64,000 nt of DNA from a virus. Numbering within the stretch: the stretch's first letter is position 1; each line of letters starts with the position of its first letter. Positions 3,933 to 53,636 of this stretch are shown piece after piece. The DNA is taken from IMG/VR virus record IMGVR_UViG_3300045988_168418; one strand, written 5' to 3'. The position numbers and the translations under genes are program-made. Below the pieces are notes generated by a model. The model was not told where the DNA came from. It saw only the letters and a list, made by a program, of their open reading frames with translations, and did not search any database.

Positions 3933-5483
3933 TTAAAAAGCACTAACATCAGCCTTTTTTTCTTCTTTTGGCTTAACAGTGATTTTTAAATCTTCAATAG
4001 GAATCAACTCATACTGGTAATTAGTTGCAAACATAGGAATAATTTTACAAGTACCTCTATTCGCCTTACACCACAATAAAATTCCTTTATATCTACCCCT
4101 ACGATTTTTATAAATAGATATTTTAATTTGAGGAGTCTCAAATCCGCCTTGAGCTAAAACATTTTCTAAAGCCGTACGATCATCATTATCAACTTCAAGC
4201 ATAATCATACCACAATCAATTTTATCAGCAATAGACTTAGCTCCTCTTAAAAGATTTTGGTCATATTGCTGAGCTGTTATATAACTACTATTTAACTGAG
4301 TTGCTGTCATAATAAAAATACCATACTGGTTACACATATCTTTTAAACGGATTGAAATCATAAAAAGGATATTATCCTCTCTCAATCCTCTCACTCCAGT
4401 TTTAGACGAAACTTCACTTAGAATTTTCATGCTTGTATGGATGTAATCGAAGAACACATATTTAACATCATATTCTCTAACTCCACGTTTAATAGTATTT
4501 TCAATATCTTTTAGAGAAAAATCTGGTAATTGTTCTATATATAATGGACATCTCTTTAAAAGATTTGCCGCGTAAATAACACGCTCCCATTCTCCAGCAT
4601 AATATTCTCCAGAAATAATATGCTCTTCATCTACATCAGATAAAAAAGCAATTATCATAGTCTGAATTTCATCTTTCTCTTGTTCTGTTGAAATAAAGAT
4701 TGTTGGTTCTTTAGTTCCATTTGAAATCCATTTTTCTTCTTTAGAATCATAAATTTCATCGCAAGCAATAGAGCATGCGTCTGCGATCATCGCTCTTGTT
4801 TTTCCTACTCCAGTTGCGGCTGATCGCAAATAAAATTTCTTTAATCTAGCCCCTCTAGTTACAGTATTTATCAAGGGTCCGAATAAAGGATATCCTGCTT
4901 CAGGGGTCTCTCTTAAGCGTTCGAGCAGTTCTAATGCCCCATTGCCTGCTAGTTCCGCACCATTAGAAGCATCATCTACATACTTTAATCTTATATCAGT
5001 AATTTTTTTGTCAATGATCTCTGCGATATCTTCAATAGATGAGTTGTCTAACCAATCTTCTTGAGCTTGTTTCTTTTTAACATCCATGATGTTATCTATA
5101 TCATATAGCCATGATAAGTCCATTCCTATACTTTGATACATTCTTAGCAGAGTCATCTTTTTCATTCTATTATAATAGAAATCAAAAGCCGCTAATTGTA
5201 CTGATTTACTTAATTTTTGAAGATATTCTTGTCCCTTATTAGTCTTATAAACTGCATAGCTTTTTGGTCTTTGCTCTAAATAATCTTCTATCGCATTGAT
5301 AGAAATTTCTTTAGCACCTAATTCATGTAAATTATATATAGACCCAAAAAGAATTTTATGAAATTCTTCTGTAAAATCTTCTTCATTAAAAAAGTATTTT
5401 CCATCTTCATCTAGTAAATTAGGGTTTAAATAAATTCCCCCAATAACTTGAATAATAGATGGGATATCTACATATTTTCCCAC
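3933..5483 (-). CDS. replicative DNA helicase (DnaB family)
   Basis: Walker A RSAATGVGKT, DnaB-like N-domain, Walker B LFISTEQ. Confidence 0.7.
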   Translation of the reverse strand: MGKYVDIPSIIQVIGGIYLNPNLLDEDGKYFFNEEDFTEEFHKILFGSIYNLHELGAKEISINAIEDYLEQRPKSYAVYKTNKGQEYLQKLSKSVQLAAFDFYYNRMKKMTLLRMYQSIGMDLSWLYDIDNIMDVKKKQAQEDWLDNSSIEDIAEIIDKKITDIRLKYVDDASNGAELAGNGALELLERLRETPEAGYPLFGPLINTVTRGARLKKFYLRSAATGVGKTRAMIADACSIACDEIYDSKEEKWISNGTKEPTIFISTEQEKDEIQTMIIAFLSDVDEEHIISGEYYAGEWERVIYAANLLKRCPLYIEQLPDFSLKDIENTIKRGVREYDVKYVFFDYIHTSMKILSEVSSKTGVRGLREDNILFMISIRLKDMCNQYGIFIMTATQLNSSYITAQQYDQNLLRGAKSIADKIDCGMIMLEVDNDDRTALENVLAQGGFETPQIKISIYKNRRGRYKGILLWCKANRGTCKIIPMFATNYQYELIPIEDLKITVKPKEEKKADVSAF

Positions 5484-5484
5484 T

Positions 5485-6000
5485 TCATTCTTCCTCCTTA
5501 CTGTCTAAATTAAATAGCCTTTTCATCTTTCGAATCGCGGAAGGAGGGGTAATTTCTATATATTTTATTTTAGGTTTGTATTCTTCAATATTCTTATTTT
5601 CATTTGATAATTTCGCTAAATACAAGCTATAATAATATTGTAAAGCATCCTTGTATATAAAAGGGATAATACCAATCCCGCCGTTCGCTTTTTCTATTGA
5701 ATTTCCTTTAATTTCATAAAACCAAATCAAAGATTTTAACATTCCACTATAAGTATAATTATACATAGCTTTGTAATCTTTAATTTGTTTTTTAATTCTA
5801 GCGTTAATATAGGGTTCATCAAACAATTTCATAATATATTGCTCTAATTTTTCTAAGTCTTGCTCTTCCTGGCTTTTTTCTTTTTGATTCTTTTCCGCAC
5901 ATTCTTTATGTGCATATCTCCTTGCAGAAATTTGAGTTGTTTCTATTTTATCTCTATCAAAACGTTTTTTACAATAAATACACGTTACAAAATGGCTCAT
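5485..6000 (-). CDS. zinc-ribbon protein, function unknown (N-terminus paralogous to ORF 34257..34541)
   Basis: CIYCKKRFDRD...RRYAHKEC matches CYFCGERFDRD...KRYAHECC in 34257..34541. Confidence 0.4.
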   Translation of the reverse strand: MSHFVTCIYCKKRFDRDKIETTQISARRYAHKECAEKNQKEKSQEEQDLEKLEQYIMKLFDEPYINARIKKQIKDYKAMYNYTYSGMLKSLIWFYEIKGNSIEKANGGIGIIPFIYKDALQYYYSLYLAKLSNENKNIEEYKPKIKYIEITPPSAIRKMKRLFNLDSKEEE

Positions 6001-6051
6001 TTAAAACTCCTTATTTCTTTCTACAAATATTATAACATATTTTTTAATAAA

Positions 6052-6085
6052 TATCAAAAAAGTGTGGACTAATCCACACTTTTTA
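6052..6085. terminator. bidirectional rho-independent terminator
   Basis: AAAAAAG-AGTGTGGACTAATCCACACT-TTTT. Confidence 0.5.
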
Positions 6086-8093
6086 TTAATTCTTTTAAAT
6101 CAGTGACAATCAAATCTAAAGCCTCAACTTGATCTCTTGAACATTGACTAACTTTCATACCTTTTCCCAAATATCTATCTGTAATTTGAACGATTCTAGG
6201 CTGCCAATATTCTTTAAATTCCTCATTAGATTTTTGCATGATTAAATCATTTACAATAGTATTGAAACTATTCAATAATTCATCAAAATCTAATTCCGCT
6301 CTTGTGTCTTTATATAAGTTTGATCTTTCGTCTGTAAAATACTCACTTCCATCTTCTTCCATTTGTTTATCAATAGCCATGCCAATAGCATCAACTAAGC
6401 TTTGATAATTAAAATCAATGTAATCTGGAGTATATTTAAAACGAGAACCTGCAATATATCTTGGCGTTCCACGCATAAATAATTTGGTTGAAGTTTTACC
6501 TTCTTCATCTTGAACACTACGAGAATAGCCTATAATATCGCACATTCGAGATATAATCGCTCTAGGTTTATTTCCTAAGGTAGGAACGATCTGATTATAC
6601 TCTTGACCTTGCTCATCTTTAAAAGTTTTATCTACTGAGTGACTAATTAAAACTAAACCGTAATCCATTTGAATAATAGAACGTAAACATTCATCATATT
6701 CTTTAGCGACTTGAGTATACCCCTTCCCGAATGGGATATCACTAACAGAATCTACTCCGAATCCGCCATCTGGTCTTTTCGCATTAGCACAAATATACTT
6801 CTCGCATAAATCATATGCGATGTCTGCCGTGTCTATAATAACTGTTTCGAACTGTTCTTTTACTTTTTCATCTTTTAATTGTCTCAGTACTTTTCTAAAT
6901 TCCGCCCAGGTGTTAATTGGCTGAGCCATTGCTCCAGGAATCGCATTGTATCCTTTCTCAAAAGCCAGTAACAGGTGGCGGGGAAACTTGGTTGCGATCG
7001 TCGTTTTCATATATTATATAATATAATACATCAGACTATATCTTCAAATATTTATAAAGGAATATCAGAAAAAACAAAACCTTTTAATTTACGAATACCT
7101 TTTAAATATCGGCAAATAGATGAAGGTGCAACTCCAAAAGCTTTAGCACACTCTTTTTGTGAATTATAAGAGTTAATAAAATTACCATTATTATCATATA
7201 CATAAACTATTTTCTTGTTTGAATTACTCCAACAGTTGATCTTATCTTTTTTATACGATTTAAACTGATATTGTTTATAATGCTGCTGTTGTTCTGTTAT
7301 ACATCTCCATATACTAGTGTAATCCAAATTAAGCTTTTGTGCAGCTTCATAACCATTTACAAAAGACTGAATGTAATTGCCACTTAAATCATATTGATGA
7401 CATTCTTTCATTTCATGTTGTTGTAAATTACTAGTATAACTATGACGCATATTCTCTAATGCTGTTGACCACTCTAAATTATCTATATTATTATTTAATT
7501 TATTTCCATCTATATGATTAACTTGCAATTCATCCATCTCTTCACAAGGTTTAAATGCTTTCATAACCAATCTATGAACTGAGCAATTCTTATCTATTCG
7601 ATAACGTAAATGCACCATACGATAACCATTATTAGTAACTGATCCTCCTAATAAGGTTTTAGTTGAATCATTACGCACATTACCATAATTAGATACACTA
7701 TAAAAAGTTTCTTGACCGTTAATTAAAATTTTTTTCCAAATTTCTTGTTTTTCCATAATTATTCCTCCTAAATACCTACGGGTATTTCGATTATAAAATC
7801 TACGGTTATAAAACCTAGTCGTTGAACCTTTGTCTCCGTGAGACACTTGGCTGCGGATTGGAACTACAATAAACGTTTTACTATACCAAGCACATTACTA
7901 CTTGCCATTATAATATCGCTATTATAACTTAGTCTTTATTGATTATATTCTATCCCCGCAATTTCCCCATATTATCGTGGCAAAAATTCTCTCTCTATTC
8001 ACCACTCTTAGGCTCTCCATAGAAGAATACACTGTATCCTCTTAAATCTCTTGATACTTGATGCGGTTTAATGTTAAGTAAATCAATTCCCAT
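6069..8093 (-). CDS. AAA_24/Sak4-like recombination ATPase, intron-containing: exon1 8093..8001, exon2 7007..6069
   Basis: Exon1 encodes MGIDLLNIKPHQVSRDLRGYSVFFYGEPKSG. Exon2 starts KTTIATKF. Splicing restores the Walker A GEPKSGKTT. Walker B/sensor VIIDTAD ... LVLISH. Confidence 0.65.
7008..8000 (-). mobile_element. group I intron (about 993 nt) carrying an HNH homing endonuclease gene, inserted within the Walker-A codons of the AAA_24 ATPase gene
   Basis: 5' exon ends in U (ggT|gaatag). Intron ends in G (..tatatG|aaaacg). Exon2 restarts the frame exactly, with an internal HNH ORF. Confidence 0.6.
7052..7756 (-). CDS. HNH homing endonuclease (NUMOD4/HNH_3 type) encoded inside the group I intron
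   Basis: NYGNVRN ... HRLV ... VNHIDGNKLNNNIDNLEW HNH motif. Likely start MEKQEIW preceded by AGGAGG. The track ORF extends upstream to 7846. Confidence 0.65.
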   Translation of the reverse strand: MEKQEIWKKILINGQETFYSVSNYGNVRNDSTKTLLGGSVTNNGYRMVHLRYRIDKNCSVHRLVMKAFKPCEEMDELQVNHIDGNKLNNNIDNLEWSTALENMRHSYTSNLQQHEMKECHQYDLSGNYIQSFVNGYEAAQKLNLDYTSIWRCITEQQQHYKQYQFKSYKKDKINCWSNSNKKIVYVYDNNGNFINSYNSQKECAKAFGVAPSSICRYLKGIRKLKGFVFSDIPL

Positions 8094-8161
8094 AATTATC
8101 TTTCCTCTAACTTTCTTTATTTAATTTATTATTTATTATTCGCCATTATTAAGTTAAATAA

Positions 8162-8182
8162 ATTGGGAGCTAAGCTCCCAAT
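8162..8182 (-). terminator. rho-independent terminator after gene 8185..9135
   Basis: TTGGGAGC-TAA-GCTCCCAA hairpin with A/T flank. Confidence 0.45.
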
Positions 8183-8184
8183 CA

Positions 8185-9135
8185 TTAAAAATTAAAACCG
8201 CCATTGCTTACTGAAACAGTTGAAGTTTTAGGAGAAGAAGAATTACCATTAGCAGCTTTCTGAGCCAAATATTCCTCTCTTCTCTTCTTAACCTCGGCAA
8301 GATGAACCTCTCTATTCTGCATAGCCTGAGTAACTTCTTCCGCGGTTAAAACATTTTCATCTCCAAAATCATATGGCACAAGAGATACTCCAATAATCTC
8401 CCATTCTTTTGATTTCTTCTCATAGCTTTTTACTGCTACTTCTCCGCCAAAAGCTGATTCTTCTCTCTGCTCTACTACAATAGTTCTGCAATTAATTCTT
8501 CCCCACACTTTTGTAAATAAAGGTTCTGAAGAAGAAAAATCTAAATTTTCAAAGTACTTAATACCTTCTGGATTTTTTAATACAAACTCCACTGGTAAAA
8601 TATCATTTTTGAAATTAAAAATTGCCCCTCTGATTGTTAAGTAATCATTTAAAATACCTTTTTCCTCATCTGCTTCCACTCTATTCATGGAAGTCATAAG
8701 CATATCTGTTGTAAAGGTATTTCTTTCATTTTCTTTACATAAATTACTAACAATAGTAACAAATCCACCCTCATTCACTTTCTGTGATACTAAAGTGTCT
8801 TCATTAACATAGAAATCATTTAAAGCAAGAGCAGTATCAATTTTTACTTTTGTTGCTTCATCTTTTCCATCTGTAATCCATGCTTTTCCTTCATCAATAA
8901 TTTTCTTCAAAGCTGTATAAGTAGCGTTTTTCTTACCAGCTTTTGTTGTTTCTGTCACGTATGTAAAGTGTACTTCTACAATATTCATACCCTCTTCATC
9001 TACAGCTACACTTAATGTACCTGAAATGAATTCTTTTCCATAATTACTTGACTGCTGATTTTGAACTGTTTTAATTGTCAATTCATGTTCGTATACTCTA
9101 CCCTCGATATGCTCTGTATTAATTGCTTTACGCAT
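8185..9135 (-). CDS. putative ssDNA-binding/annealing-accessory protein (very tentative)
   Basis: Lies directly upstream of the Sak4-like ATPase, where Sak4 modules usually carry an SSB. Gly-rich C-terminal tail ending GGFNF. Confidence 0.25.
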   Translation of the reverse strand: MRKAINTEHIEGRVYEHELTIKTVQNQQSSNYGKEFISGTLSVAVDEEGMNIVEVHFTYVTETTKAGKKNATYTALKKIIDEGKAWITDGKDEATKVKIDTALALNDFYVNEDTLVSQKVNEGGFVTIVSNLCKENERNTFTTDMLMTSMNRVEADEEKGILNDYLTIRGAIFNFKNDILPVEFVLKNPEGIKYFENLDFSSSEPLFTKVWGRINCRTIVVEQREESAFGGEVAVKSYEKKSKEWEIIGVSLVPYDFGDENVLTAEEVTQAMQNREVHLAEVKKRREEYLAQKAANGNSSSPKTSTVSVSNGGFNF

Positions 9136-15751: not shown

Positions 15752-18700
15752 TTATTCTGCATTGTAAGTAGCTTCTTGGCTATGACTCTTAATATAAGAC
15801 TTTCTTGCGGTAACTCCCGCACCCATTAGCTGATTAAATAGAATATCTGTTACAGAAACATCTTCAACTGTAATTTGTCTGATAATTCTTTTCTCAGGAT
15901 CTGTTAGAGTTTCTTCTGTCTCGTCTACTGACATTTCACCTACGTGTTACTCCACTATCACTAGTGGCACTGACTATTTCTTCTCTCAGGCTAACGTATT
16001 AACTGCCTTCTTCGAGTCCACCTTTTTGAAATGCGTATCAATAGCATCTCTACTCTCCAGCAACGGAGATAGTCGATACAGGATTATACCATAATAGATT
16101 TCCAATTTTGATATGACCAAACATTTTTAAAAGAACCTTTTGTTATTTTATCTTTATAATCTTCATATACTACTTTTAATTGTTCTCCATTTTTTCTTCT
16201 AAGTCTTATTGTCCTTACATCTTCTTCTGTAAGTTTAGATCGTCCATTTTGAGAACCAAAATTTCCAGTGTTATGAGCATGAAAATCTTTATTTTCTTTT
16301 GTGTAAACTTCTGGCATTATATTTTTCCAGGTTTCACCCTTCCATATTTTATTAAAACCAGATTCTCCTATTCTTTGATTATAAAGTAAATAAACATTTT
16401 TCTTTCTTTCTAAATTAGCATATCTTGTTCTAATATCAATAATATCTTGCTCAGTTAATTTATGTCCTGGATGATTTTCTCCAAAGTTTGTTTCTCCACC
16501 ACAGGTTAAATTATATCCATTTTTGTAAGAATCATAATAATCAATCCAATATTGTTCTTTTATATCTAATTGTTCTTGGTTACACTCCTCTATTATTTCA
16601 AAAGTGAAATTTTCTAATCCATATTTTTGAAAAGCTAAATATAAAGGTTTATTACTTTCTCGTTGCCAATTATATTTATTTTTATGCTCTTCCCATCTTT
16701 TTTCAATATGAATACTTTGTCCTATGTAGCAATGTTTATTGATATTATTAGTTATTTTATATATTCCTATCATATAAATATCTCCTTTTTAAATTCAAAA
16801 TAGGAGACAATCTCAATTATGGTAATTTCCCACGAGACCATCTTCAATATTTTTTAATTTAAAGTCACTTCAAATTAACTTAAAATGACCATTCTTATTA
16901 AAAATATTAAAGACTCCCTCGTTAGCTATCTATTTTTTTAGATAACCCCTCTGATAAAAGGAAAAGTGGATAGGGACCAGACTACCTCGTATCCCTTCAT
17001 ACGCCCAACCAAATACTTCTTTCCTGTATTGGCTTTTTTAAATACCTCTAATTCTTCATCATTTTTTAAGTATCTATATTCTTTTCCAATAGTAATTTTA
17101 TATAAAGGTGGAACTCCCGCGTAAACGTATCCATCTTTTATAAGTTCTGGACAAAAGTTCCATATAAATGTATAAAAAAGATTTTTAATGTGAGCCATAC
17201 TCTCTTATATTTCTATAAGTACTGACTATCTCTTACTACCAATATTTTGTAGAATACCCATTTCGAATTGCGTATCAATAGCAATCCTACGTAGCCGATC
17301 CGCTACTAGTCGATACAGGATTAAACGTTTTTCCATGTTATGTAATTTACTACTCTTTTAATTGTTCCTCTTGTACAAACACCAAGAAACTTATCATATA
17401 TTTCACTAATGTTCAAATTTTCTTGTTCTGCTAATCTTCTAATTTCTTTAACATCCTCTTTAGTTAATTTAGCTTTTTTATTTCCTTTTCGTTTTACTTC
17501 CGAAGATATATCTCTTATCATTGATGTATCAACATTTTTCCAAGTATTTCCTCGATAAGCTTTACAAAAAGCATCATAACTAATTTCAGTAGAATATATT
17601 TTATATACTTCCGCAGGAGGAATATTTTGAAGAAAAATCATTTCTCTAATATTTAAAACTTTTTCTTCATTTAATCTCGCTTTATTGTTTCTGCTTCCTA
17701 TTGAATATTCCTCTCCAGGAGTATCCCCAGCATCTAATATATTATACCCAAAATTTTTATCTTTAGAATTATAAAAATCAATCCAATATTGCTCTCTTTC
17801 TAATATTTCTTGATTAGTTAAAGAATCACATATTTCAACAATTTCAAAATTAAAATTTTCAAATCCGTATTTTCTAATTGCAGAAATTATAGGTCGTTGT
17901 TTATTTTTTTTAACTTCATCTCTATAATTTCTTAATCTCCTTGCAACATCTACAGATTTACCTATATAAATTTTATTATTTTGAAGATTAGTCCATTTGT
18001 AAATTGCTTTCATGTTTTACGTCCTTCCCACGGGACTACCATATCTTCTGACTTAGGCTCCCCCGTTAGCTATTTTTCTTTTATAATATATGAATTCCAA
18101 ATGGAACTCATTTTATTATATTGTCCAAATAACCCCTGTGATGAGCAGGAAAAGGTATAACAGGCACTGTTACATACCATCGACGTCCGCATCTGACATT
18201 ATAATTATTTTACCATATCTTAAATCTTCTTTATCGTAAGTTACTTTCATAGTTTTAGGATCAATTTTAAGTCCAAAAGCATCAATCATAGTCATAATTT
18301 CAGCATTTTTCTGAATTTGAGTTAGTGTAGCTTTTTGACAATTTAAAATTTTTCCTCTCACAGGCATAACCGCTTGGAATTCATTATTTCGTGCAGTTTT
18401 CAGATTACCTGAAGCACTATCCGTGTATATCCCATATTTCTATAGGCACTGACTATCTCTTCACTCCGATTTGTCAAATCTTCAACGTGTCCTCTATTTC
18501 CACTTTTGTATCAATAAAAAGTGTACTTCCAATCTCACTTGGAATAGTCGATACAGCTTATTTTATATCTTTGTATGTTTGTCGAGTTATTATATTATAT
18601 ATAGTACTCCAGGCAGAATTTGGAGCATACTTTTTCCAAACTTCTTTTGGAGTCATTCCCTTATCATAATCTTTTCTCATATTTTTTACTTCTTCATTAG

Positions 18701-20771
18701 AAAATTTTCTTTTGTTATTTGAAGCTATTTCAAAGCTATTAGCTTTAGCTTGGTGAGAATGCCAATATCTATTTTCTTCAGAATGATATTCTGGATGGAT
18801 ATCTTTCCAAGTTTCAAACCACCAAACTTTTTGTAAACCTCTTTTAGATATTTTATTTTTATATTCTTCATAAACTTGTTTAAAAGAAATATGATTATTA
18901 TAACATTCTCTTATATATTCTACATCTTCCTTGGATAATAAAGCTCTTCCATTTTTTTCACCATACTGAGATCTATTAGGATTATCTTCTCCTCCAGGAG
19001 TTGCATTATATCCTTCTTTATAAGAGTTATAATATTTAATAAAATATTTTTCAAGATCGTTTAGCATATCTTTAGAATATTCTTCATTAGATATTTCTGC
19101 AATTATTTCATAATCAAAATTTTCTAATCCATATTTTCTTATTGCTTGATGTAACTGGCTATTATAATCTTTTGCTTTTTCGTTAAAAGCTGATGATTTA
19201 TGTGCCATTTTTCTTTGTTTTAAATTAATACTTTGTCCTATATAGACTTTTTTATTAATTTTATTTTGATATTTATATATACCTATCATATCCACTGTCT
19301 CCTTATAATTTATTCATTACAATATGAAGGAGACTCTATTTTCATTAATAACCTTTGACAAAAATATAAAATCTTGCCACGGGATTGACTTCACCTAAAC
19401 ATGTTTTGACTTTCATGTGTAATGGTCAGTTTTCCCCGTTAGCACGCAATTTGCGTACCCCGCTGATAAACGGTAAAAAGGATTAGGGCAATATTTTTTT
19501 TACTTACCCTCAGTCACGTATATTTCGCACTTCATTCTATCCTTTGAGTAACAATCCGCAAGTTTAGAATCAAATTTTAAAACTTTTTCTTTTTTCTTCT
19601 TTTCTTTTTCTCTTGCAAGTTCTCTTGCCTTTTTTGCGGCTTCACTTGCCTTTTTCGCGGCGATTGCTTTATCAAAAATTACTTTAATCTCTTTTTCATT
19701 TGACAAGAGCCACTCTTGAATATTTTCCGCAATAATACCAGTAAAAGGCGTCATATCAAGCTTTACAATCCTAGATTTAGTCTGAGCGTCATAGGATACT
19801 CCTGGAGCTGTAATATTAAAAGCTACCATTAATCCCTCTTGTATGGCAGATCCTTCTAAGTTATCATCTTTAGTTTTCAACCACTTTTTCTCTCTAAAGA
19901 ATTTATTAAATTCTCTAGTAATTAAAGACTTAATCTGTGTAATATGCGGTCCTGCATCTGTTTCTCCTGTATTAACATAAGAAATCATATTAGTTGAATA
20001 ATTTTTTGTATATGTCAATACTAAATCAATTTTATTTTTACCATTACTATGTTTAATGCATAGTCTATTGTTAATAATTTCAGTATCTTTAACTTTATCT
20101 GAAACTAAGTCATCAAGACCATTTTTTGAAACATATTCAATAGCATCTTTTCCATTATGGGTTAAGTTAATTGTCAATCCTGGACATAAACAAACTAATA
20201 CATGAAATAATTCTTTTATTCTTTTCTCATCTATTTCCGCGTGATTAAAAAATTGTTTATCTGGTTTCCAGGAAACAATAGTTCCAGTATGATGATCTCC
20301 CTGCAATCCTGTCTCTCTTGATTTAAAAATTCCATCTTCAAAATAGATAGATTCAAAATGACCATCTCTAAAAGTTTTAACATTTAGATTACTTGAAAGA
20401 AAATTTGTTAATTTACTTCCAATTCCATTTAAACCTAAAGCTGTGCCTTCATACACACCATCTTCTGAAAACTTACCAGAAGTATTTAAAACATCAAAAG
20501 AAGCTTGCAAAACGCTTTCCCCATCTTCTCTCATAATATTCACTGGAAAGCCTTGAGCAAAATCTTCTACTGTACAAGAGCCATCATCTTTATAATCTAC
20601 ATTTATTATGTTTCCATTTCCCGCTTGAAACTCATCAATAGCATTAGATACAATCTCAATCAATAGCTGGGTTGAATACTCCGTGGACCCACAATAAACC
20701 CCAGGTCTAAGTCGTGTAAACTCCCGCGGGCTTAATGATTCTATTGACTTCTCATTATATAAATTGCCCAT
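15752..20771 (-). CDS. type II DNA topoisomerase B subunit (GyrB/T4 gp39-like), four exons: 20771..19506, 18421..18176, 17201..16991, 15942..15752
   Basis: Exon1 GHKL ATPase ...IYVTEG. Exon2 DSASGN...MPVRGKILNCQK...IIIMSDADVDG (TOPRIM). Exon3 SMAHIKNLF...ELIKDGYVYAGVPPLYKI...GRMKG. Exon4 (L)GEMSVDETEETLTDPE... Exons sum to 1914 nt, 637 codons. Confidence 0.8.
15943..16990 (-). mobile_element. group I intron 3 of the gyrB-like gene, with GIY-YIG HEG
   Basis: Exon3 ends ..aagggaT. Intron ends ..aacacG. Exon4 starts taggtgaaatg, rebuilding KG|LGEM (GyrB ...YKGLGEMN...). Introns 1 and 3 share 3' motifs. Confidence 0.65.
16084..16773 (-). CDS. GIY-YIG homing endonuclease (intron-encoded)
   Basis: MIGIYKITNNINKHCYIGQSIHIEKRWEEHKN... 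Confidence 0.7.
   Translation of the reverse strand: MIGIYKITNNINKHCYIGQSIHIEKRWEEHKNKYNWQRESNKPLYLAFQKYGLENFTFEIIEECNQEQLDIKEQYWIDYYDSYKNGYNLTCGGETNFGENHPGHKLTEQDIIDIRTRYANLERKKNVYLLYNQRIGESGFNKIWKGETWKNIMPEVYTKENKDFHAHNTGNFGSQNGRSKLTEEDVRTIRLRRKNGEQLKVVYEDYKDKITKGSFKNVWSYQNWKSIMV
17202..18175 (-). mobile_element. group I intron 2 of the gyrB-like gene, with GIY-YIG HEG
   Basis: Exon2 ends DADVDG (..gatggT). Intron ends ..agagaG before exon3 agtatggctcac (SMAH). Confidence 0.6.
17321..18013 (-). CDS. GIY-YIG homing endonuclease (intron-encoded)
   Basis: MKAIYKWTNLQNNKIYIGKS... Confidence 0.7.
   Translation of the reverse strand: MKAIYKWTNLQNNKIYIGKSVDVARRLRNYRDEVKKNKQRPIISAIRKYGFENFNFEIVEICDSLTNQEILEREQYWIDFYNSKDKNFGYNILDAGDTPGEEYSIGSRNNKARLNEEKVLNIREMIFLQNIPPAEVYKIYSTEISYDAFCKAYRGNTWKNVDTSMIRDISSEVKRKGNKKAKLTKEDVKEIRRLAEQENLNISEIYDKFLGVCTRGTIKRVVNYITWKNV
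18422..19505 (-). mobile_element. group I intron 1 of the gyrB-like gene, with GIY-YIG HEG
   Basis: Exon1 ends ..gagggT. Intron ends ..acacG immediately before exon2 gatagtgct (DSA). Internal ORF 18558..19295. Confidence 0.65.
18558..19295 (-). CDS. GIY-YIG homing endonuclease (intron-encoded)
   Basis: MDMIGIYKYQNKINKKVYIGQS... Confidence 0.7.
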   Translation of the reverse strand: MDMIGIYKYQNKINKKVYIGQSINLKQRKMAHKSSAFNEKAKDYNSQLHQAIRKYGLENFDYEIIAEISNEEYSKDMLNDLEKYFIKYYNSYKEGYNATPGGEDNPNRSQYGEKNGRALLSKEDVEYIRECYNNHISFKQVYEEYKNKISKRGLQKVWWFETWKDIHPEYHSEENRYWHSHQAKANSFEIASNNKRKFSNEEVKNMRKDYDKGMTPKEVWKKYAPNSAWSTIYNIITRQTYKDIK

Positions 20772-48717: not shown

Positions 48718-48796
48718 AAATGAAGAGTGTTAAACTCTTCAGTTTGTTAATTTATTATAAGGGAATTAACACCCTAAAGGAAGGAAAACAGTTTCA

Positions 48797-48878
48797 TGAA
48801 CAGTGGGCGTGATGAGATTCGAACTCACATGACTCTAAGTCAGCGGATTTTAAGTCCGCCACGTATACCTTTCCGTCA
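48797..48878 (-). tRNA. tRNA-Leu(TAA), second copy with different acceptor
   Basis: Acceptor GGGCGTG/CACGCCC; identical anticodon arm GCGGA-CTTAAAA-TCCGC; variable arm TGACTTAGAGTCAT. Confidence 0.7.
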
Positions 48879-49130
48879 CACGCCCAAAATGAATAGATTC
48901 AAAGGCTCTTTACTCCAAGAGGATAAAACCTTATATTAAGCATTGACATTAAAGGCTTTGCTAATAGAAAGTTATATCTATCCAACTTTCAAAGACAAAA
49001 GATTTAATTTATCAGTCTGCAAAATTATTTAATTATTTGATACTTTAATTACAATGGACGTCCGCAGTACTTTTTAACAGGCACTTCTGCCTCCACGATT
49101 TAACCGAATCGCTCGGACAAGAAAATTCAC

Positions 49131-49150
49131 TTGCATTGCATTGCATTGCA
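49131..49150. repeat. (TTGCA)4 tandem repeat
   Basis: ttgcattgcattgcattgca. Confidence 0.85.
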
Positions 49151-49216
49151 TATCTATTGTCTGCCCATATGCTTTTGACTATCGTAGGTTTTTAAAAAGT
49201 AAGCCTATAAACTTGA

Positions 49217-49290
49217 TGCTTAAGAATGGACTTGAACCACCGACCTCATGCTTATCAGACATGTGCTCTAACCAACTGAGCTACTTAAGC
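49217..49290 (-). tRNA. tRNA-Ile(GAT)
   Basis: Acceptor GCTTAAG/CTTAAGC; anticodon arm CATGT-CTGATAA-GCATG; T-arm GGTGGTTCAAGTCCATT. Confidence 0.75.
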
Positions 49291-49316
49291 TTATATTTCT
49301 TTTTTCTTTTCTTTTC

Positions 49317-49358
49317 TTTTGATATATTTATTATATCATAATTTTTTATTTTTTTCAA
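49317..49358 (-). promoter_or_regulatory. conserved promoter/5'UTR motif
   Basis: ttttgatatatttattatatcataatttttt. Confidence 0.45.
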
Positions 49359-49762
49359 ATTATTTTTAGAGCCTATGCTATATGCTTACACCACCGCCAC
49401 CTAAATAGTCGCTACCTTGCTCAGAAAGAGGAATTTAATATTTTGTTTTTACAGAAAGGCACAAAATAAACCTATGTAATTTTTACAATACATTTTAAAG
49501 AAAGAGATGTGCAACACTGGTTTCTTGCACTCGCGGCGTTTGGTATCCGCGTTTCATATGACGTCACCCAGCTTTTACCACGCTTCTATTTTTTAGCTAT
49601 ATTAGCAAAAGATAAGAGAAGCACTAACGAATCTTACTTTCACCCACATTCGGGAACGGTTTCCTTATTCAAACCACTAAAGTCACTTCATCTCCGCATG
49701 AAGAACGTTTGTTCTTATTTACTAATAACTTCCTAGGTTTATCTGTAAATAAAAGACAAAAT

Positions 49763-49836
49763 TGCGGCGGGTGGGATTCGAACCCACGACCTCTTGGTTA
49801 TGAGCCAAGCGAGCTTCCAGGCTGCTCTACCCCGCG
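49763..49836 (-). tRNA. tRNA-Met(CAT)-like, D-arm close to E. coli tRNA-fMet; acceptor stem pairs poorly (possible pseudogene or non-canonical)
   Basis: CGCGGGG-TA-GAGCAGCCTGGAAGCTC-G-CTTGG-CTCATAA-CCAAG-AGGTC-GTGGGTTCGAATCCCAC-CCGCCGC; acceptor 1-7 vs 66-72 mostly unpaired. Confidence 0.45.
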
Positions 49837-49839
49837 ATA

Positions 49840-50067
49840 TTAAAATCTTCCGAGAAAATTTCCCAATTCATCAAAATCAAAACCTACTGGTTCTCTTTCA
49901 TAACCATTCGCAATTATAAAAGAAACTCTGGAAGCGGGTAAGGAAGAATACTGTTTTTTTAATTCAGTAAAATCCTCATCAAGAAAATCTTCTACAATAA
50001 AAGGACTATTGTGACAAGCAGATTGAATCAATTTGATTCCACCAAGTAATTTTTCTTTGTCAGTCAT
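49840..50067 (-). CDS. hypothetical protein
   Basis: 75-aa ORF. Confidence 0.3.
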   Translation of the reverse strand: MTDKEKLLGGIKLIQSACHNSPFIVEDFLDEDFTELKKQYSSLPASRVSFIIANGYEREPVGFDFDELGNFLGRF

Positions 50068-50169
50068 AAAAAATTTTCTCCTTTTTTACAAGACAGTTTA
50101 TTTTAGATTTATAAGAATTAAAAGTTCTTTCCTTGAAATAATATAATTGTTTGCTGTTTCTGTCTTAAA

Positions 50170-50242
50170 TGACCCCGGCGGGACTTGAACCCAGCATTAC
50201 GACCTTGAAAGGGTCGTATCCTAACCCTTAGACCACGGAGCC
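50170..50242 (-). tRNA. tRNA-Glu(TTC)
   Basis: Acceptor GGCTCCG/CGGGGTC (two G-U pairs); D-arm GTCTAAGGGTTAGGAT; anticodon arm CGACC-CTTTCAA-GGTCG. Confidence 0.65.
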
Positions 50243-50246
50243 GCAT

Positions 50247-50330
50247 ATTTGTACTGGGATTCAAACCCAGGTTCTCAGAATTAGTCTTAGACTGCTTAAC
50301 TATAAAGCTAAAAAACTTATTACTCTTCTT
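50247..50330 (-). other. orphan T-arm-like perfect hairpin (CTGGGTTTGAATCCCAG) with partial tRNA-like context, directly 5' of tRNA-Glu; no pairing acceptor found
   Basis: T-arm and 3' acceptor-like TACAAAT present, but no complementary 5' acceptor or anticodon arm. Confidence 0.35.
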
Positions 50331-50442
50331 CTATTGGCTCCTCGTTCATAATGAATTCCCAATATTTGGACTCATCATAAAATTCTTCACACTGTGTACC
50401 TAAGTCAAAATCATCAAACATAAATATCATTTCCTTTCTTCT

Positions 50443-50486
50443 TTTGATATATTTATTATATCATATATTTTTTAAAAAATCAATTA
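50443..50486 (-). promoter_or_regulatory. conserved promoter/5'UTR motif
   Basis: ttttgatatatttattatatcatatattttttaaaaaatcaa. Confidence 0.45.
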
Positions 50487-50497
50487 AGATTTTTTAA

Positions 50498-50571
50498 TCA
50501 CTCTTAACAGACTCGAACTGTTATCTTTACCTTGAGAGGGTAATATCCTATTCCTTTTAGACGAAAGAGTG
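50498..50571 (-). tRNA. tRNA-Glu(CTC)
   Basis: Acceptor CACTCTT/AAGAGTG; D-arm GTCTAAAAGGAATAGGAT; anticodon arm TTACC-CTCTCAA-GGTAA. Confidence 0.75.
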
Positions 50572-50799
50572 TTATAATATGTACGATCAGCTTTAACGCA
50601 CTTGATGCTTATTAAGTTGGTATTATAAGCATCTTTCACATAAATGGTATTACCAACGATCATTTATATAAAGTTTTCCCTTTGATCTAATGATTAGCTT
50701 GACATTCAAGTCTACCGCATCCTCGCGGACTAACTTCATTAGCTTTTAACCAGGTCTATCACAGTTAAGGAGTTTTATGTGTGTTCCTTCGCCACAGCG

Positions 50800-50883
50800 T
50801 GGGAGTGGAGGGAATCGAACCCACTCGATGCAAATGCCACCTGATTTACAGTCAGGTCGGACTCCTTAGCCGTTTACACTCCC
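50800..50883 (-). tRNA. tRNA-Tyr(GTA)
   Basis: Acceptor GGGAGTG/CACTCCC; anticodon arm CCTGA-CTGTAAA-TCAGG; long variable arm. Confidence 0.7.
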
Positions 50884-50890
50884 TCATTTT

Positions 50891-51241
50891 CTAAACAAAA
50901 TCAACTTTATCAAACATTGGTGCATAACTTTTAACATGATTATGAGTTAAAACGCCCATCAAAACTTCATTTTCATTTTCTTCTACGATAAAGATACGAG
51001 CCGTATCTGTCGTAACTGCTTGTCTACCTCTTGGAGCAGTTAATAGTTTAGCACATCTTTCAACTCTTTGCATGTCAGTAGTATTAACTTCCATTCTTCC
51101 TCTAGAACTAACTACTACAAAGACAGGCATATTATTTTTAATCTTTGGTCTTACATCAAGAATCCTACCGCACCAGTTGATATCATATTCTTCGTGCACA
51201 TCTGTTACTACTAAATGAGTTTTTACTAATACTTCCGCCAT
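50891..51241 (-). CDS. hypothetical protein
   Basis: 116-aa ORF immediately upstream of tRNA-Tyr. Confidence 0.35.
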   Translation of the reverse strand: MAEVLVKTHLVVTDVHEEYDINWCGRILDVRPKIKNNMPVFVVVSSRGRMEVNTTDMQRVERCAKLLTAPRGRQAVTTDTARIFIVEENENEVLMGVLTHNHVKSYAPMFDKVDFV

Positions 51242-51245
51242 CTTG

Positions 51246-51437
51246 TCACTCCTTAAAAGAATTAAAGAACTTTATAATATCTTTATTTACCTTTCTAGTT
51301 TCAGTATTCTCACTCCTTGGGGCGGATTTAGAAACATGAGATGGATGTTGCTCTTTCCAACAGGAAAGAAAATGTTTTGTAAGATTTTCTTCTTTTTCAA
51401 ATCCTTTTTTACAAGTAGGACAAATATACATATTCAA
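51246..51437 (-). CDS. small C2H2-like zinc-finger protein
   Basis: CPTCKKGFEKEENLTKHFLSC. Confidence 0.3.
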   Translation of the reverse strand: MNMYICPTCKKGFEKEENLTKHFLSCWKEQHPSHVSKSAPRSENTETRKVNKDIIKFFNSFKE

Positions 51438-51790
51438 TCTCCTTTATCAGCCTTTTCATTAACCGTTCCTGTAGAAATAGTGTGCTTAAAAAGACAGGAT
51501 AAAATAGCTAGATACTGAAATATTCTTTCTTAGCAGGAAAGTGCCCTATATGAGCAGTATAATTGCTGTATGTATCTATTTTTCCACTTCATTAAAAGAT
51601 GACGCTTTTAATGAAATTAGCTTTCGATACCATCTCTGTCAAGTCCTTAGCTTACAAGGACGGCGAAGTGTAAGCCCTTCATCCCGTACTCATACTTCCC
51701 ATTGATTTACAAGGCTGATAGTACGAAACAACCTTGGAAGAATTTCATAGGTCATCTATGACTGAGGTTCTTCAATTTCTCAGATTTGAG

Positions 51791-51862
51791 CTGGGGTAGC
51801 TGGATTTGAACCAGCGTATTTCGGAGTCAAAGTCCGATGCCTTACCGCTTGGCGATACCCCA
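51791..51862 (-). tRNA. tRNA-Gln(TTG)
   Basis: Acceptor TGGGGTA/TACCCCA (U1:A72); anticodon arm TCGGA-CTTTGAC-TCCGA; T-arm GCTGGTTCAAATCCAGC. Confidence 0.75.
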
Positions 51863-51871
51863 TTATAAACT

Positions 51872-51931
51872 GCCCCGGTGGGAATTGAACCCACAACACG
51901 CTGGTTAATCAGAAGTTGAGATTTGAACTCA
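51872..51931 (-). other. truncated tRNA remnants: two T-arm-like hairpins (GTGGGAATTGAACCCAC, TTGAGATTTGAACTCAA) with 3'-acceptor-like flank and no 5' halves
   Basis: T-arms and the 3' acceptor GCCCCGG present, no complementary 5' acceptor. They abut the 3' end of the frameshifted HNH gene. Confidence 0.4.
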
Positions 51932-52546
51932 AATATTTTCCCATTGCTCATCAGTGTATTTATCAATCTCAGATTTTTTTCGAGGGAGATTTTCTTTATC
52001 GCACCATTTTCTAATTGTATTATCACTACAATTATATTTTTCTGCAATTTTAGTAAAAGGTAACTCTCGAATTAATTTTTTTAATTCTTCTCTATCAGGT
52101 CTTTCAATAATTCGTCTTTTTAATTGAGCACATGATGGACATAAACCAGTTTTAGAAAAACGACTAATTTTTATTCCGCAATTAGAACATTTTCGTTCTT
52201 CTTTTTTATTTTCTTGTATCAATTCATTCGCATAATTATCATTATAAACTTGATATTTCCATAAATCAATTCCTTCATACAAATTAGTTGTATGAATTTC
52301 TCTATGACAATTTGAACAGACTAAAAGACATTTTTTTTTACTTCTTCTAAATCTTCTTCAATATTATGACAATTTCCACTGGATAATTGATACTTTTTAT
52401 CTTCTGGATTTATATATATGATGAAACTCTAAAGCTCCAACACATTTATTATATCCACATAAGCTACAACAAGAACCTAATACTTTTACTAAGTTTTCCT
52501 TTCTTCTCTTTCTAAAATCTGTAACAGCTTTAATATTATTACTCAT
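51929..52546 (-). pseudogene. HNH homing endonuclease gene interrupted by a frameshift in an A9 tract (+strand T9 at 52331-52339); downstream frame = ORF 51929..52282
   Basis: Upstream frame MSNNIKAVTDF...CCSLCGYNKCVGALEFHHIYINPEDKKYQLSSGNCHNIEEDLEEVKK stops after the A-run. The other frame continues CLLVCSNCHREIHTTNLYEGIDLWKYQ... (HNH + zinc ribbon + HTH). Confidence 0.55.
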
Positions 52547-52614
52547 AATTTTTCTCCTTTTCTATTTTATAAATAGAAAGAATTAACATTATGAGTTAAT
52601 CACTGTTGACCATA

Positions 52615-52676
52615 GTTCAAATGCATTACTTATGCTACTCCCGCACAGCCAGCCGTTCTACCATTGGACTACAGGG
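52615..52676 (-). other. tRNA-like 5'-half fragment (acceptor + D-arm-like GCCCTGT-AG-TCCAATGGTAGAAC...) without T-arm
   Basis: Minus strand GCCCTGTAGTCCAATGGTAGAACGGCTGG...; no 3' partner found. Confidence 0.25.
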
Positions 52677-53082
52677 CATTAAAACGTTGATTTACAAGAT
52701 GCTCTTATTATAAAAACTCCTTTTATCTATACAGAAATTCATTGCTGTAATGCATCTTTAATACTTTGTTTTCATGTATTTATTATATCATATATTTTTT
52801 AAAAAATCAATTAAGATTTTTTGCCTAGCGTTTCAGGTACTTTTTAACCCTAACTTGCTCAAAACAAGGTCTGATATTCACGCATACTCCTATAGTACCA
52901 TGGGGTTTAGGTCTCGATCAAGTAGTTGTACTCTTTTCATAGCCTGGACTCTTGAAAGATGGTTTAGTTCGTTTTATACCGCCTACTCCTTACGGCGGTC
53001 TGGCTGTCTCTCAAAGTCCATTTAACCGTTTCATAACACCCATCAGATTTAATCTGGATTAAGTGACTGCGGCACCATAGTC

Positions 53083-53106
53083 CCGTGGGGCTGGAATCGA
53101 ACCACC
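53083..53106 (-). other. isolated T-arm + 3'-acceptor-like tRNA fragment
   Basis: +strand CCGTGGG-GCTGGAATCGAACCACC; no 5' half within 100 nt. Confidence 0.25.
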
Positions 53107-53433
53107 CTAATAGTTATATACTTTAGCTCGTACTTATTAAATTACTTATAGTATTTTTTCTAGCTCATTATTACTACTTTCATAAAACAGTGACTTACTA
53201 CTCCTCAAACCTTGTCTCAGCGATTACCCAATTTTTCTTAATAAAATTTAGCTAGTTAAATAAAATTAAGATCAAATCGCACACGGGTTATAAATATTTA
53301 ATTATTTTGTTATAATGCAGTTTCTTTTCAATTAACCACTACTCAGACTTACAATTATAACAAGGTTATTAACCTAATGGATAGCACCGTTTAAAGCTCC
53401 TGAACTGCTTACCATCATATTGTAACTTGTTCA

Positions 53434-53513: not shown

Positions 53514-53557
53514 TTAAAATACTCTAAGTAAAACTCGAACCCACAGCAGCTTAAATA

Positions 53558-53578: not shown

Positions 53579-53636
53579 TTACCAATTTCATCACTAGAGC
53601 TTATTTAGCCACGTGAGAAAAATTTGCACGTGTTAG

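What the first reader, a model, noticed from the sequence alone, without database searches (positions are those of the whole stretch)
6069..8093. Group I intron with an HNH endonuclease gene splitting the Walker A motif of the Sak4/AAA_24 ATPase gene
The 313-aa ORF starting MKTTIATKF lacks a P-loop. About 1 kb upstream in the same orientation a short ORF ends ...YSVFFYGEPKSG. Joining exon1 (8093..8001, ends in U) to exon2 (7007.., preceded by an intron-terminal G) yields the contiguous P-loop GEPKSGKTT. The 993-nt intervening sequence contains a complete HNH endonuclease ORF. An insertion that splits the most conserved catalytic motif is typical homing-intron behaviour.
Basis: partly seen in the sequence, partly recalled or inferred. 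Interest (0 to 1): 0.75.

Follow-up and report, generated by a model that had tools for sequence, protein, structure and literature searches.

The report
Mobile intron splitting a phage ATPase gene
A 993-base self-splicing (group I) intron that carries its own DNA-cutting enzyme gene sits inside the ATP-binding motif of a phage recombination ATPase gene; it is real and probably still mobile, but it is an ordinary example of a well-known kind of selfish element.

Summary
The observation and the interpretation both hold.

On the minus strand, exon 1 (8093..8001) and exon 2 (7007..6069) are separated by exactly 993 nt (8000..7008).
- **Host gene:** joining the exons restores GEPKSG|KTT and gives a 343-aa protein that matches AAA_24 end to end (E 8.5e-38) and PHROG 124, "Sak4-like".
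- **Boundaries:** a metagenomic relative about 95% identical (L004) has the same gene uninterrupted, with exactly the predicted junction.
- **Ribozyme:** the intervening RNA has a U·G pair in P1, a P10 pairing, a terminal G, the P/Q/R/S core elements and P7.1/P7.2 hairpins. Rfam's Intron_gpI matches its ORF-free 5' half (E 8e-6).
- **Covariation:** diverged copies at the same site in other viral contigs show many compensatory changes, and the guide sequence tracks synonymous exon changes.
- **Endonuclease:** the P8 loop holds an intact I-HmuI-type HNH gene under purifying selection.

Splicing itself is not shown.

New here: an unrelated insert with a LAGLIDADG ORF occupies a site 3 nt upstream in other relatives, and the same window has a gyrB-like gene split by three inserts carrying GIY-YIG ORFs.

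Verdict: a new member of a known kind, in a host gene family I did not find reported as intron-bearing. Moderate to low interest.

The parts
8001..8093 (-). Exon 1 of the Sak4-like AAA_24 ATPase gene (31 codons, MGIDLL...YGEPKSG). Its last base is the U that forms the U·G pair in P1.
   Evidence: It matches the first 93 nt of the uninterrupted gene in L004 with 2 mismatches. A ribosome-binding site AGAGGAAAG lies just upstream, at about 8107-8115.
7008..8000 (-). Group I intron of 993 nt, subgroup IA-like, with the ORF in the P8 loop.
   Evidence: The exact boundaries come from the intron-less allele L004. Rfam RF00028 gives a truncated hit on the 5' half. The MFE fold of the ORF-deleted RNA recovers P1, P4-P6, P7, P7.1, P7.2 and P9.
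7977..7985 (-). Internal guide sequence. GCCAC (7981..7977) pairs with the exon 1 end GUGGU (P1, with U·G at the splice site). UUUU (7985..7982) pairs with the exon 2 start AAAA (P10).
   Evidence: The guide covaries with the exon in relatives: GCGGU/GCCGC in L087 and GCGGGU/GCUCGC in L089 and L085.
7849..7971 (-). P3 5' strand (UAUGGG, 7971..7966), the P element / P4 5' strand (AAUUGCGGGG, 7963..7954), the extended P5 domain, and the Q element / P4 3' strand (AAUCCGCAGCC, 7859..7849).
   Evidence: Motif positions are and the Rfam alignment. RNAalifold on the P4-P6 domain of 4 sequences gives 14 of 40 pairs with double compensatory change and 3 positions with a non-pair.
7777..7828 (-). R element / P7 5' strand (GGUUCAACGACUAG, 7828..7815), the P7.1 hairpin (GGUUUUAUAACC, 7815..7804), the P7.2 hairpin (GAUUUUAUAAUC, 7800..7789) and the P3 3' strand (CCCGUA, 7782..7777).
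   Evidence: P3 shows two double compensatory changes between the window (UAUGGG/CCCGUA) and L089 (AUUGGGU/GCCCGAU).
7052..7756 (-). Intron-encoded HNH homing endonuclease gene (234 aa plus stop), I-HmuI-like. Its Shine-Dalgarno sequence AGGAGG lies next to the P8 5' strand (GGUAUUUA, 7776..7769). Its stop codon lies inside the P8 3' strand (UAAAUAUU, 7054..7047).
   Evidence: Pfam NUMOD4, HNH_3, NUMOD1 and I-HmuI_NUMOD-like. The only PDB match is I-HmuI 1U3E, E 1.4e-8. PHROG 59, E 1.6e-44. The ORF is intact in 3 diverged lineages, with dN/dS of about 0.11-0.14.
7008..7044 (-). S element / P7 3' strand (AAGAUAUAGUCU, 7044..7033), an AU-rich P9 hairpin, and the terminal G (omega-G) at 7008.
   Evidence: P7 GACUA/UAGUC is invariant in all copies, and every copy ends in G.
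6069..7007 (-). Exon 2 of the ATPase gene (KTTIATKF... to the stop codon). It holds the rest of the AAA_24 domain and a C-terminal extension of about 120 aa.

Best explanation
This is a mobile group I intron of the kind common in large phages of Firmicutes. It is inserted between the G and K codons of the Walker A motif (GEPKSG|KT) of a phage Sak4-like AAA_24 ATPase gene, which lies in the replication/recombination module.

**Splicing (inferred).** After transcription the intron RNA folds into the P1-P9 ribozyme. Its guide sequence GCCAC pairs with the last bases of exon 1, with the U·G wobble marking the 5' splice site. A free guanosine attacks there. The UUUU next to the guide then aligns exon 2 (P10). 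The terminal G docks, and the exons are ligated to ...AGU GGU|AAA ACG..., which restores one 343-codon reading frame.

**Homing (inferred).** The P8 loop carries a gene for an I-HmuI-type HNH endonuclease. By analogy with I-HmuI and I-BasI, this enzyme nicks or cuts intron-less alleles of the same gene in a co-infecting phage. Recombinational repair from the intron-bearing genome then copies the intron in.

**What is shown here:**
- the exact boundaries;
- the restored full-length ATPase;
- the ribozyme core and its covariation;
- an intact endonuclease ORF under selection;
- presence/absence polymorphism of the intron among close relatives.

**What is inferred:** actual splicing, whether splicing is autonomous or needs factors in the cell, and the cleavage specificity and activity of the endonuclease.
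For: 1. **Boundaries.** The intron-less allele L004 (IMG/VR 3300045988_162193) differs from the spliced window gene at 46 of 1032 nt. It reads ...CCTAAGAGTGGT|AAAACGACG... across the site. Shifting either boundary by one base would not reproduce this sequence. The two genomes are collinear at 94-96% identity over more than 8 kb around the gene.
2. **Host gene.** The joined protein matches AAA_24 at E 8.5e-38 over the whole profile and PHROG 124 at E 1.8e-50. It is colinear with uninterrupted homologues, for example Enterococcus phage VRE9_4 at 52-53% identity, with GEPKSGKTT aligned. Synteny is also conserved: phrog_2367, Sak4-like, phrog_4680, DnaB-like helicase.
3. **Ribozyme.** Rfam Intron_gpI matches the 5' half at 28.9 bits, E 8.4e-6. 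P1 with U·G, P10, P3, P4, P6, P7, P7.1, P7.2, P8 and the terminal G are all present.
4. **Comparative evidence.** The same intron and HNH gene sit at the same site in L087 (core about 77% identical) and in L084/L086/L089 and L085 (about 75%).
   - The guide sequence changes in step with exon changes: GUGGU/GCCAC, GCGGU/GCCGC, GCGGGU/GCUCGC.
   - There are double compensatory changes in P3 and P8.
   - In the P4-P6 domain, 14 of 40 pairs show double compensatory change.
5. **Endonuclease.** It has NUMOD4 + HNH_3 + NUMOD1, matches I-HmuI 1U3E, and has dN/dS of about 0.11-0.14, including the unsaturated pair L089/L085.
6. **Distribution.** Of the 80 closest loci, 74 are uninterrupted. L005 and L008 carry this intron. 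L006 and L023-25 carry a different insert 3 nt upstream.
Against: - There are no RNA data, so splicing is not demonstrated.
- The Rfam match is below the family's gathering score (28.9 against 50) and covers only the 5' half. The full region gives no hit, which is expected with a 705-nt ORF in P8.
- No clear P2 helix was identified, so the subgroup assignment (IA-like) rests on hairpins seen by eye.
- The residue before the catalytic His is Asn (VNH), where the aligned I-HmuI sequence has Asp (VDH). The significance of this was not tested.
- No gene-conversion tract is evident around the site when the window is compared with L004.
Confidence: 0.9

Rival explanations
1. The ribozyme is real but not autonomous. 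It splices only inside the infected cell, with help from phage or host factors, or inefficiently, so that the intron acts as a brake or timer on production of the ATPase.
For: - In the Bastillevirinae survey, four of the eight genes that spliced did so only in infected bacteria (PMC11878797, abstract).
- Here P2 appears to be missing.
- In the relatives the 3' tail after P7 is very short: 10 nt in L087 and 5 nt in L089, including the terminal G.
- The endonuclease's Shine-Dalgarno sequence and stop codon overlap P8, so translation and folding may compete (inference).
Against: All core helices are present and they covary. Nothing in the sequence shows a defect.
Confidence: 0.25
2. The gene is dead. 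A free-standing HNH gene, or a decayed intron, was inserted into the P-loop, and the two ORFs are a pseudogene fragment plus a truncated protein with no splicing.
For: - Exon 2 happens to begin with an in-frame ATG (7010).
- The full-region Rfam scan is negative.
Against: - The intron core is conserved, with compensatory changes, across three lineages whose exons are 60-80% identical.
- In each lineage the exons keep frame and restore GEPK[SA]GKTT on joining.
- The guide sequence follows synonymous exon changes. That is expected only if P1 pairing is under selection.
- The ATG at 7010 consists of the last two intron bases plus the first exon base. It is not conserved: L087 has ...TCG|AAA and L089 has ...ACG|AAA.
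Confidence: 0.03
3. The endonuclease's main role is not homing. It serves mainly as a weapon against co-infecting relatives that lack the intron, which is interference competition. The intron is the vehicle that lets the gene sit harmlessly in an essential motif.
For: - Phage PhiPA3 gp210, an intron-encoded HNH enzyme, nicks a gene of the co-infecting phage PhiKZ and gives a competitive advantage (PMC11620839).
- Here, alleles without an insert, with the HNH intron and with the LAGLIDADG insert all come from contigs of one IMG/VR dataset, 3300045988 (L004; L005/L008; L006).
- The endonuclease is under purifying selection.
Against: Nothing here separates this reading from ordinary homing, because both start with the same cleavage. 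No activity data exist.
Confidence: 0.25

Closest known systems
The group I introns in the DNA polymerase genes of Bacillus phages SPO1/SP82 (I-HmuI, I-HmuII) and Bastille (I-BasI), and the PHROG 59 HNH-bearing introns surveyed in Bastillevirinae (PMC11878797)
   Same: - The endonuclease has the same architecture (NUMOD4 + HNH + NUMOD1/I-HmuI NUMOD-like). Its only PDB match is I-HmuI and its PHROG is 59.
- The ORF sits in a peripheral loop of an IA-type ribozyme.
- The insertion is in a highly conserved motif of a replication-related gene of a large Firmicute-type phage.
- As that survey also reports, general covariance models often detect only one side of the ORF.
   Different: - The host gene is a Sak4-like AAA_24 ATPase. 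The survey found introns only in DNA polymerase, terminase large subunit, thymidylate synthase and RNR genes.
- Sequence similarity of the ribozyme to deposited phages is only 71-81% over short core stretches.
The group I intron in the recA gene of Bacillus phage 0305phi8-36, which encodes I-Bth0305I (PMC3239194)
   Same: It is a mobile group I intron in a phage RecA-superfamily recombination gene, placed in a functionally critical conserved motif.
   Different: - That intron sits in the L2 DNA-binding loop, not the P-loop.
- Its endonuclease belongs to a different, Vsr-like family.
- Its host gene is a true recA, not an AAA_24 gene.
PhiPA3 gp210, an intron-encoded HNH endonuclease in the RNA polymerase gene of a jumbo phage (PMC11620839)
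   Same: It is an HNH nicking endonuclease inside a phage group I intron. The window's intron core gives a weak blastn match to an unannotated stretch of PhiPA3; I did not check whether that stretch is the gp210 intron.
   Different: The host gene and phage group are different. The competitive function was shown experimentally there and is not tested here.

Membership tests
Group I intron | The 5' exon ends in U, and that U forms a U·G wobble with an internal guide sequence (P1). | tested here: met
   GUGGU|/GCCAC has U8001·G7981. The pairing is kept by compensatory change in L087 and in L089/L085.
Group I intron | The last intron nucleotide is G (omega-G), and the 3' exon pairs with the guide sequence (P10). 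| tested here: met
   G at 7008. AAAA/UUUU in the window and AAAAC/GUUUU in relatives. Every copy ends in G.
Group I intron | A conserved catalytic core: P3-P4-P6 and P7-P8 with the P, Q, R and S elements and the P3/P7 pseudoknot topology. | tested here: met
   All elements were located. The Rfam alignment covers P1 to the 5' strand of P7. Helices were checked in four sequences and show compensatory changes.
Group I intron | The score reaches Rfam RF00028's gathering threshold. | tested here: inconclusive
   The 5' half alone gives 28.9 bits against a gathering score of 50 (E 8.4e-6). The full region gives no hit, because the 705-nt ORF interrupts P8. An ORF-deleted sequence could not be submitted to the Rfam tool.
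Group I intron | Guanosine-dependent self-splicing that yields ligated exons. | not testable with these tools
   This needs in vitro transcription and splicing, or RT-PCR.
Group I intron, subgroup IA | Extra hairpins P7.1 and P7.2 between the P7 5' strand and the P3 3' strand. | tested here: met
   GGUUUUAUAACC and GAUUUUAUAAUC are both recovered by MFE folding. P7.2 varies but is mostly kept paired in relatives. No subgroup-specific covariance models were available.
I-HmuI-like HNH homing endonuclease | An HNH (beta-beta-alpha-Me) catalytic domain flanked by NUMOD DNA-binding modules. | tested here: met
   Pfam NUMOD4 (2.8e-10), HNH_3 (6.5e-13), NUMOD1 (2.3e-14) and I-HmuI_NUMOD-like (2.2e-10), all above their cut-offs. 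PDB 1U3E matches at E 1.4e-8.
I-HmuI-like HNH homing endonuclease | Site-specific nicking of the host gene near the insertion site. | not testable with these tools
   This needs a cleavage assay on the L004-type target.
AAA_24 / Sak4-like ATPase (host gene) | A full-length match to PF13479 above the gathering score, with an intact Walker A motif GxxxxGK[ST]. | tested here: met
   130.6 bits against a cut-off of 27, over profile positions 2-195 of 195. GEPKSGKT exists only after the exons are joined. PHROG 124 matches at E 1.8e-50.
AAA_24 / Sak4-like ATPase (host gene) | Single-strand annealing or recombination activity. | not testable with these tools
   The name 'Sak4-like' comes from the PHROG and Pharokka annotation.
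Mobile (homing) intron | Precise presence/absence polymorphism at one site among closely related genomes. | tested here: met
   L004 lacks it. L005, L008 and the window have it. The flanks are 94-99% identical.
Mobile (homing) intron | The intron is transferred to intron-less alleles in mixed infection. | not testable with these tools
   This needs phage crosses.

The most novel reading that the evidence does not exclude
The Walker A codons of this phage ATPase gene may be a contested landing site. Two unrelated inserts occupy positions only 3 nt apart in related phages from one IMG/VR dataset: the IA-type intron with an HNH enzyme, after GGT, and a differently organised insert with a LAGLIDADG enzyme, after AGT. 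Each insertion destroys the other's P1 pairing and probably its target site, so the two should be mutually exclusive. In this reading, their endonucleases act as weapons between co-infecting strains, in the manner of PhiPA3 gp210, and not only as homing devices.
Probability: 0.25. Interest if true: 0.55.

Novelty: new member of a known kind. Interest (0 to 1): 0.33.

Why it matters
- **Annotation.** Gene callers will report a P-loop-less 313-aa "hypothetical protein", a 32-aa fragment and a stray HNH gene. The real product is one 343-aa Sak4-like ATPase. The same window also has a gyrB-like gene in four pieces.
- **Range of host genes.** This adds a recombination ATPase of the AAA_24 family to the phage genes known to be invaded by group I introns. 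The literature I could search does not link the two. A recent systematic survey of one phage subfamily found introns only in polymerase, terminase, thymidylate synthase and RNR genes.
- **A possible study system.** Alleles without an insert, with the HNH intron and with the LAGLIDADG insert occur in contigs of one IMG/VR dataset. That is a ready-made natural system for studying homing, competition between introns for overlapping sites, and endonuclease-mediated competition between phages.

None of this changes how such elements are thought to work.

Tried and rejected
- **Rfam with permissive thresholds on 5500-8700:** no group I hit. The ORF in P8 explains this. Restricting the search to the ORF-free 5' part gave the hit.
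- **Rfam gathering scan of the whole window:** only about 30 tRNAs and no introns. Rfam alone would miss every intron in this window.
- **Exact-protein look-up of the exon 2 product:** not on record.
- **Megablast of the locus against deposited phages:** only a 58-nt match, 91-93% identical, inside the HNH motif, to S. epidermidis phage HNH genes. No close deposited relative exists.
- **Rfam on either ORF-free half of the L006 insert and on the 5' part of one gyrB insert:** no hits. Their group I status rests on junction rules, P1 pairing and covariation only.
- **MAFFT alignment A2 of the ORF-deleted introns:** it put the P1/guide region out of register. I therefore evaluated the helices explicitly in Python and did not use the count of structure pairs.
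- **Search for a gene-conversion (co-conversion) tract around the site, window against L004:** none is evident. Divergence is if anything higher 100-300 nt downstream of the site.
- **A 60-row sample of the 233 deposited phage homologues:** none is split at the P-loop.
- **Intein:** considered and rejected, because a stop codon follows exon 1 and the insert has a ribozyme core.
- **Group II intron:** considered and rejected, because the insert matched only the group I model, its ORF has HNH/NUMOD domains rather than a reverse transcriptase, and it is only 993 nt long.
Full report
**What is in the sequence**

All features lie on the minus strand. A short ORF (8093..7995, MGIDLLNIKPHQVSRDLRGYSVFFYGEPKSGE*) is followed by a 234-codon ORF (ATG 7756, stop 7052). 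After that comes a 313-codon ORF (7010..6069, MKTTIATKF...).

**The host gene**

Joining 8001 to 7007 gives a 343-aa protein with the Walker A motif GEPKSG|KTT.
- It matches Pfam AAA_24 (PF13479) over the whole profile, 2-195 of 195, at 130.6 bits and E 8.5e-38.
- Its best PHROG is 124, "Sak4-like ssDNA annealing protein", E 1.8e-50.
- By tblastn, the closest deposited relatives are Enterococcus phages of about 134-142 kb (VRE9_1-4, H1, EF1, EF5). They are 52% identical and cover residues 3-341 in one uninterrupted piece.
- In a protein alignment the junction falls in GEPKSGKTT of the uninterrupted VRE9_4 protein.
- The neighbourhood is syntenic with VRE9_4: phrog_2367, Sak4-like, phrog_4680, DnaB-like helicase.

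The window comes from a large phage with about 30 tRNA genes.

**The boundaries are fixed by a natural intron-less allele**

Among the 80 best loci returned from a scan that found 409 IMG/VR homologues, L004 encodes a 99%-identical protein in one contiguous stretch. Its DNA differs from the spliced window gene at 46 of 1032 positions. Across the site it reads ...CCTAAGAGTGGT|AAAACGACGATC..., which is the predicted ligated sequence. Moving either boundary by one base would give a different sequence. L004 and the window are collinear at 94-96% identity over more than 8 kb. L005 and L008 carry the same intron, with a 100% identical core and an HNH ORF 99.6-99.7% identical. Of the 80 best loci, 74 are uninterrupted through the P-loop.

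**The intervening sequence is a group I ribozyme**

- A permissive Rfam scan of the whole region finds nothing. When the ORF is cut off (7770-8030), RF00028 Intron_gpI matches model positions 1-165 (P1 to the 5' strand of P7) as a 3'-truncated hit, at 28.9 bits and E 8.4e-6. This is below the gathering score of 50, as expected for half a model.
- The classical elements are present: P (AAUUGCGGGG, 7963..7954), Q (AAUCCGCAGCC, 7859..7849), R (GGUUCAACGACUAG, 7828..7815) and S (AAGAUAUAGUCU, 7044..7033).
- Plain MFE folding of the ORF-deleted RNA recovers P1, P4, the P5 extension, P6, P7, the P7.1 and P7.2 hairpins and P9.
- P1 is GUGGU|GAA paired with UUUGCCAC, with the U·G wobble exactly at the 5' splice site. 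P10 is AAAA (start of exon 2) paired with the UUUU just 5' of the guide. The intron ends in G.
- The ORF fills the P8 loop. Its Shine-Dalgarno sequence abuts the P8 5' strand and its stop codon lies in the P8 3' strand.

**Comparative support**

The 25-nt R/P7.1 string occurs in five further viral contigs. In all of them it belongs to a diverged copy of the same intron and HNH gene at the same site of the homologous gene. The core is 75-77% identical and the HNH ORF about 70% identical at the nucleotide level.

- **P1 tracks the exon.** The window has GUGGU/GCCAC. L087 has GCGGU/GCCGC, where the Ser codon is AGC instead of AGT. L089 and L085 have GCGGGU/GCUCGC, where Ser is replaced by Ala.
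- **P3** changes from UAUGGG/CCCGUA to AUUGGGU/GCCCGAU, which is two double compensatory changes.
- **P8** also covaries.
- **P4-P6.** RNAalifold on this domain gives 14 of 40 pairs with double compensatory change among only three lineages.

This is strong evidence that the RNA structure, including exon recognition, is under selection.

**The endonuclease**

- The ORF has NUMOD4, HNH_3, NUMOD1 and I-HmuI_NUMOD-like domains.
- Its only PDB match is I-HmuI (1U3E, E 1.4e-8).
- It falls in PHROG 59. That is the commonest intron-encoded protein family in the Bastillevirinae survey (PMC11878797).
- It is intact (232-234 aa) in all three lineages, with dN/dS of about 0.11-0.14. That includes the unsaturated pair L089/L085.

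**Mechanism**

The best-supported account is the standard one. Guanosine-initiated self-splicing restores the ATPase mRNA. The HNH enzyme nicks intron-less alleles such as L004 in mixed infection, and repair copies the intron in. Splicing and cleavage are inferred, not shown.

Two variants cannot be excluded:
- The ribozyme may need factors in vivo. In the Bastillevirinae study, four of the eight spliced genes spliced only in infected cells.
- The endonuclease may serve chiefly in competition between phages, as shown for PhiPA3 gp210 (PMC11620839).

The reading that the gene is simply broken is very unlikely, given the covariation and the conserved, frame-preserving exons. The ATG at 7010 is an accident of the intron's last two bases and is absent in relatives.

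**A second insert at the same motif**

L006 (exons 94-95% identical to the window) and L023-L025 (protein about 79% identical) carry an unrelated insert of 1114-1133 nt, 3 nt upstream (...AAGAGT|AAATAA...ATTG|GGTAAAAC). It has an ORF matching LAGLIDADG_3 (E 1.3e-16).
- It obeys the U|...G| rule and has a P1 pairing AGAGU/GCUCU.
- Its topology fits a group I intron: P3, P4-P6, P7 5' strand, ORF, P3 3' strand, P8, P7 3' strand, P9.
- L006 and L025 differ by 6 double compensatory changes with no broken pairs.
- Rfam scores neither half, so its status as a group I intron is inferred.

Because the two sites are 3 nt apart, each insertion disrupts the other's P1 pairing. The two inserts should therefore be mutually exclusive.

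**Comparison with what is known, and novelty**

Group I introns with HNH, GIY-YIG or LAGLIDADG endonucleases in conserved motifs of phage replication genes are well documented:
- T4 td, nrdB and nrdD;
- SPO1 and Bastille DNA polymerase;
- Twort;
- the Bastillevirinae survey (PMC11878797);
- recA of phage 0305phi8-36 (PMC3239194).

The first three items are from my own knowledge. I found no paper that links group I introns with Sak4 or AAA_24. None of a 60-row sample of the 233 deposited phage homologues is split at the P-loop. I therefore class this as a new member of a known kind, in a host gene family not yet reported as invaded. It is useful for annotation and as a natural three-allele system, but it is not mechanistically surprising.

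Noticed in passing
window 15752-20771, minus strand: A GyrB-like type II topoisomerase subunit gene is split into four exons by three inserts. Each insert carries a GIY-YIG ORF (18558..19295, 17321..18013, 16084..16773; Pfam GIY-YIG E 1e-5 to 5e-12). Removing the inserts restores the conserved motifs TEG|DSASG, DADVDG|AHI and KGL|GEM. Each exon ends in T and each insert ends in G. Insert 1 has a P1 pairing AGGGU/GCCCU. An S-like motif (AAGAGATAGTC or AAGAAATAGTC) lies about 100 nt below each ORF stop. Rfam gave no hit on the 5' part of the third insert.
   Followed up: partly
L006 2868-4000; L025 2887-4000 (also L023, L024): In relatives, an unrelated insert of about 1.1 kb with a LAGLIDADG_3 ORF sits 3 nt upstream of the window's intron site, in the same Walker A codons (AGT|...|GGT). 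It has group I-like topology and compensatory changes, but no Rfam hit.
   Followed up: partly
L005 about 6600-7590 (and L008); corresponds to about window 4454, inside ORF 3933..5483: The DnaB-like helicase gene is intact in the window. In L005 and L008 it is interrupted by an insert of about 1 kb with a 236-aa ORF that starts with a GIY-YIG-like motif. The insert falls at ...KYVF|FDYIH..., which looks like the Walker B region. L004 has a different extra segment of about 1 kb near the 3' end of that gene.
   Followed up: partly
L084 1375-1422, L086 1599-1646, L087 6348-6390, L089 12621-12668: In contigs that carry the diverged Sak4 intron, second weak matches to the Q-R core region of the intron lie about 4 kb from it. 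These suggest further group I introns in neighbouring genes.
   Followed up: no
window 43296-56690, minus strand: A block of about 30 tRNA genes (Rfam RF00005, 38-72 bits), typical of large virulent phages.
   Followed up: no
window 7468-7525: A 58-nt stretch of the HNH catalytic motif is 91-93% identical to HNH endonuclease genes of Staphylococcus epidermidis phages (Terranova, BE04, BE25, 80A/B). Nothing else in the locus matches deposited phages at that level.
   Followed up: no
window 44830-45504, minus strand: A 224-aa ORF shows weak similarity (32% over 71 aa, E 0.001) to the middle part of the HNH protein. It contains an exact copy of the Q-like decamer AATCCGCAGC at 45042..45033. This may be another endonuclease or intron remnant, or chance.
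   Followed up: no
L087 about 2470-2520 (exon 2 of its Sak4-like gene): A run of C and G homopolymers (TTTCCCCCCCCCCCTTTTCTTTCGGCGGGGGAAGG) disrupts similarity to the other homologues just after the P-loop. This is probably an assembly or sequencing artefact in that contig.
   Followed up: no
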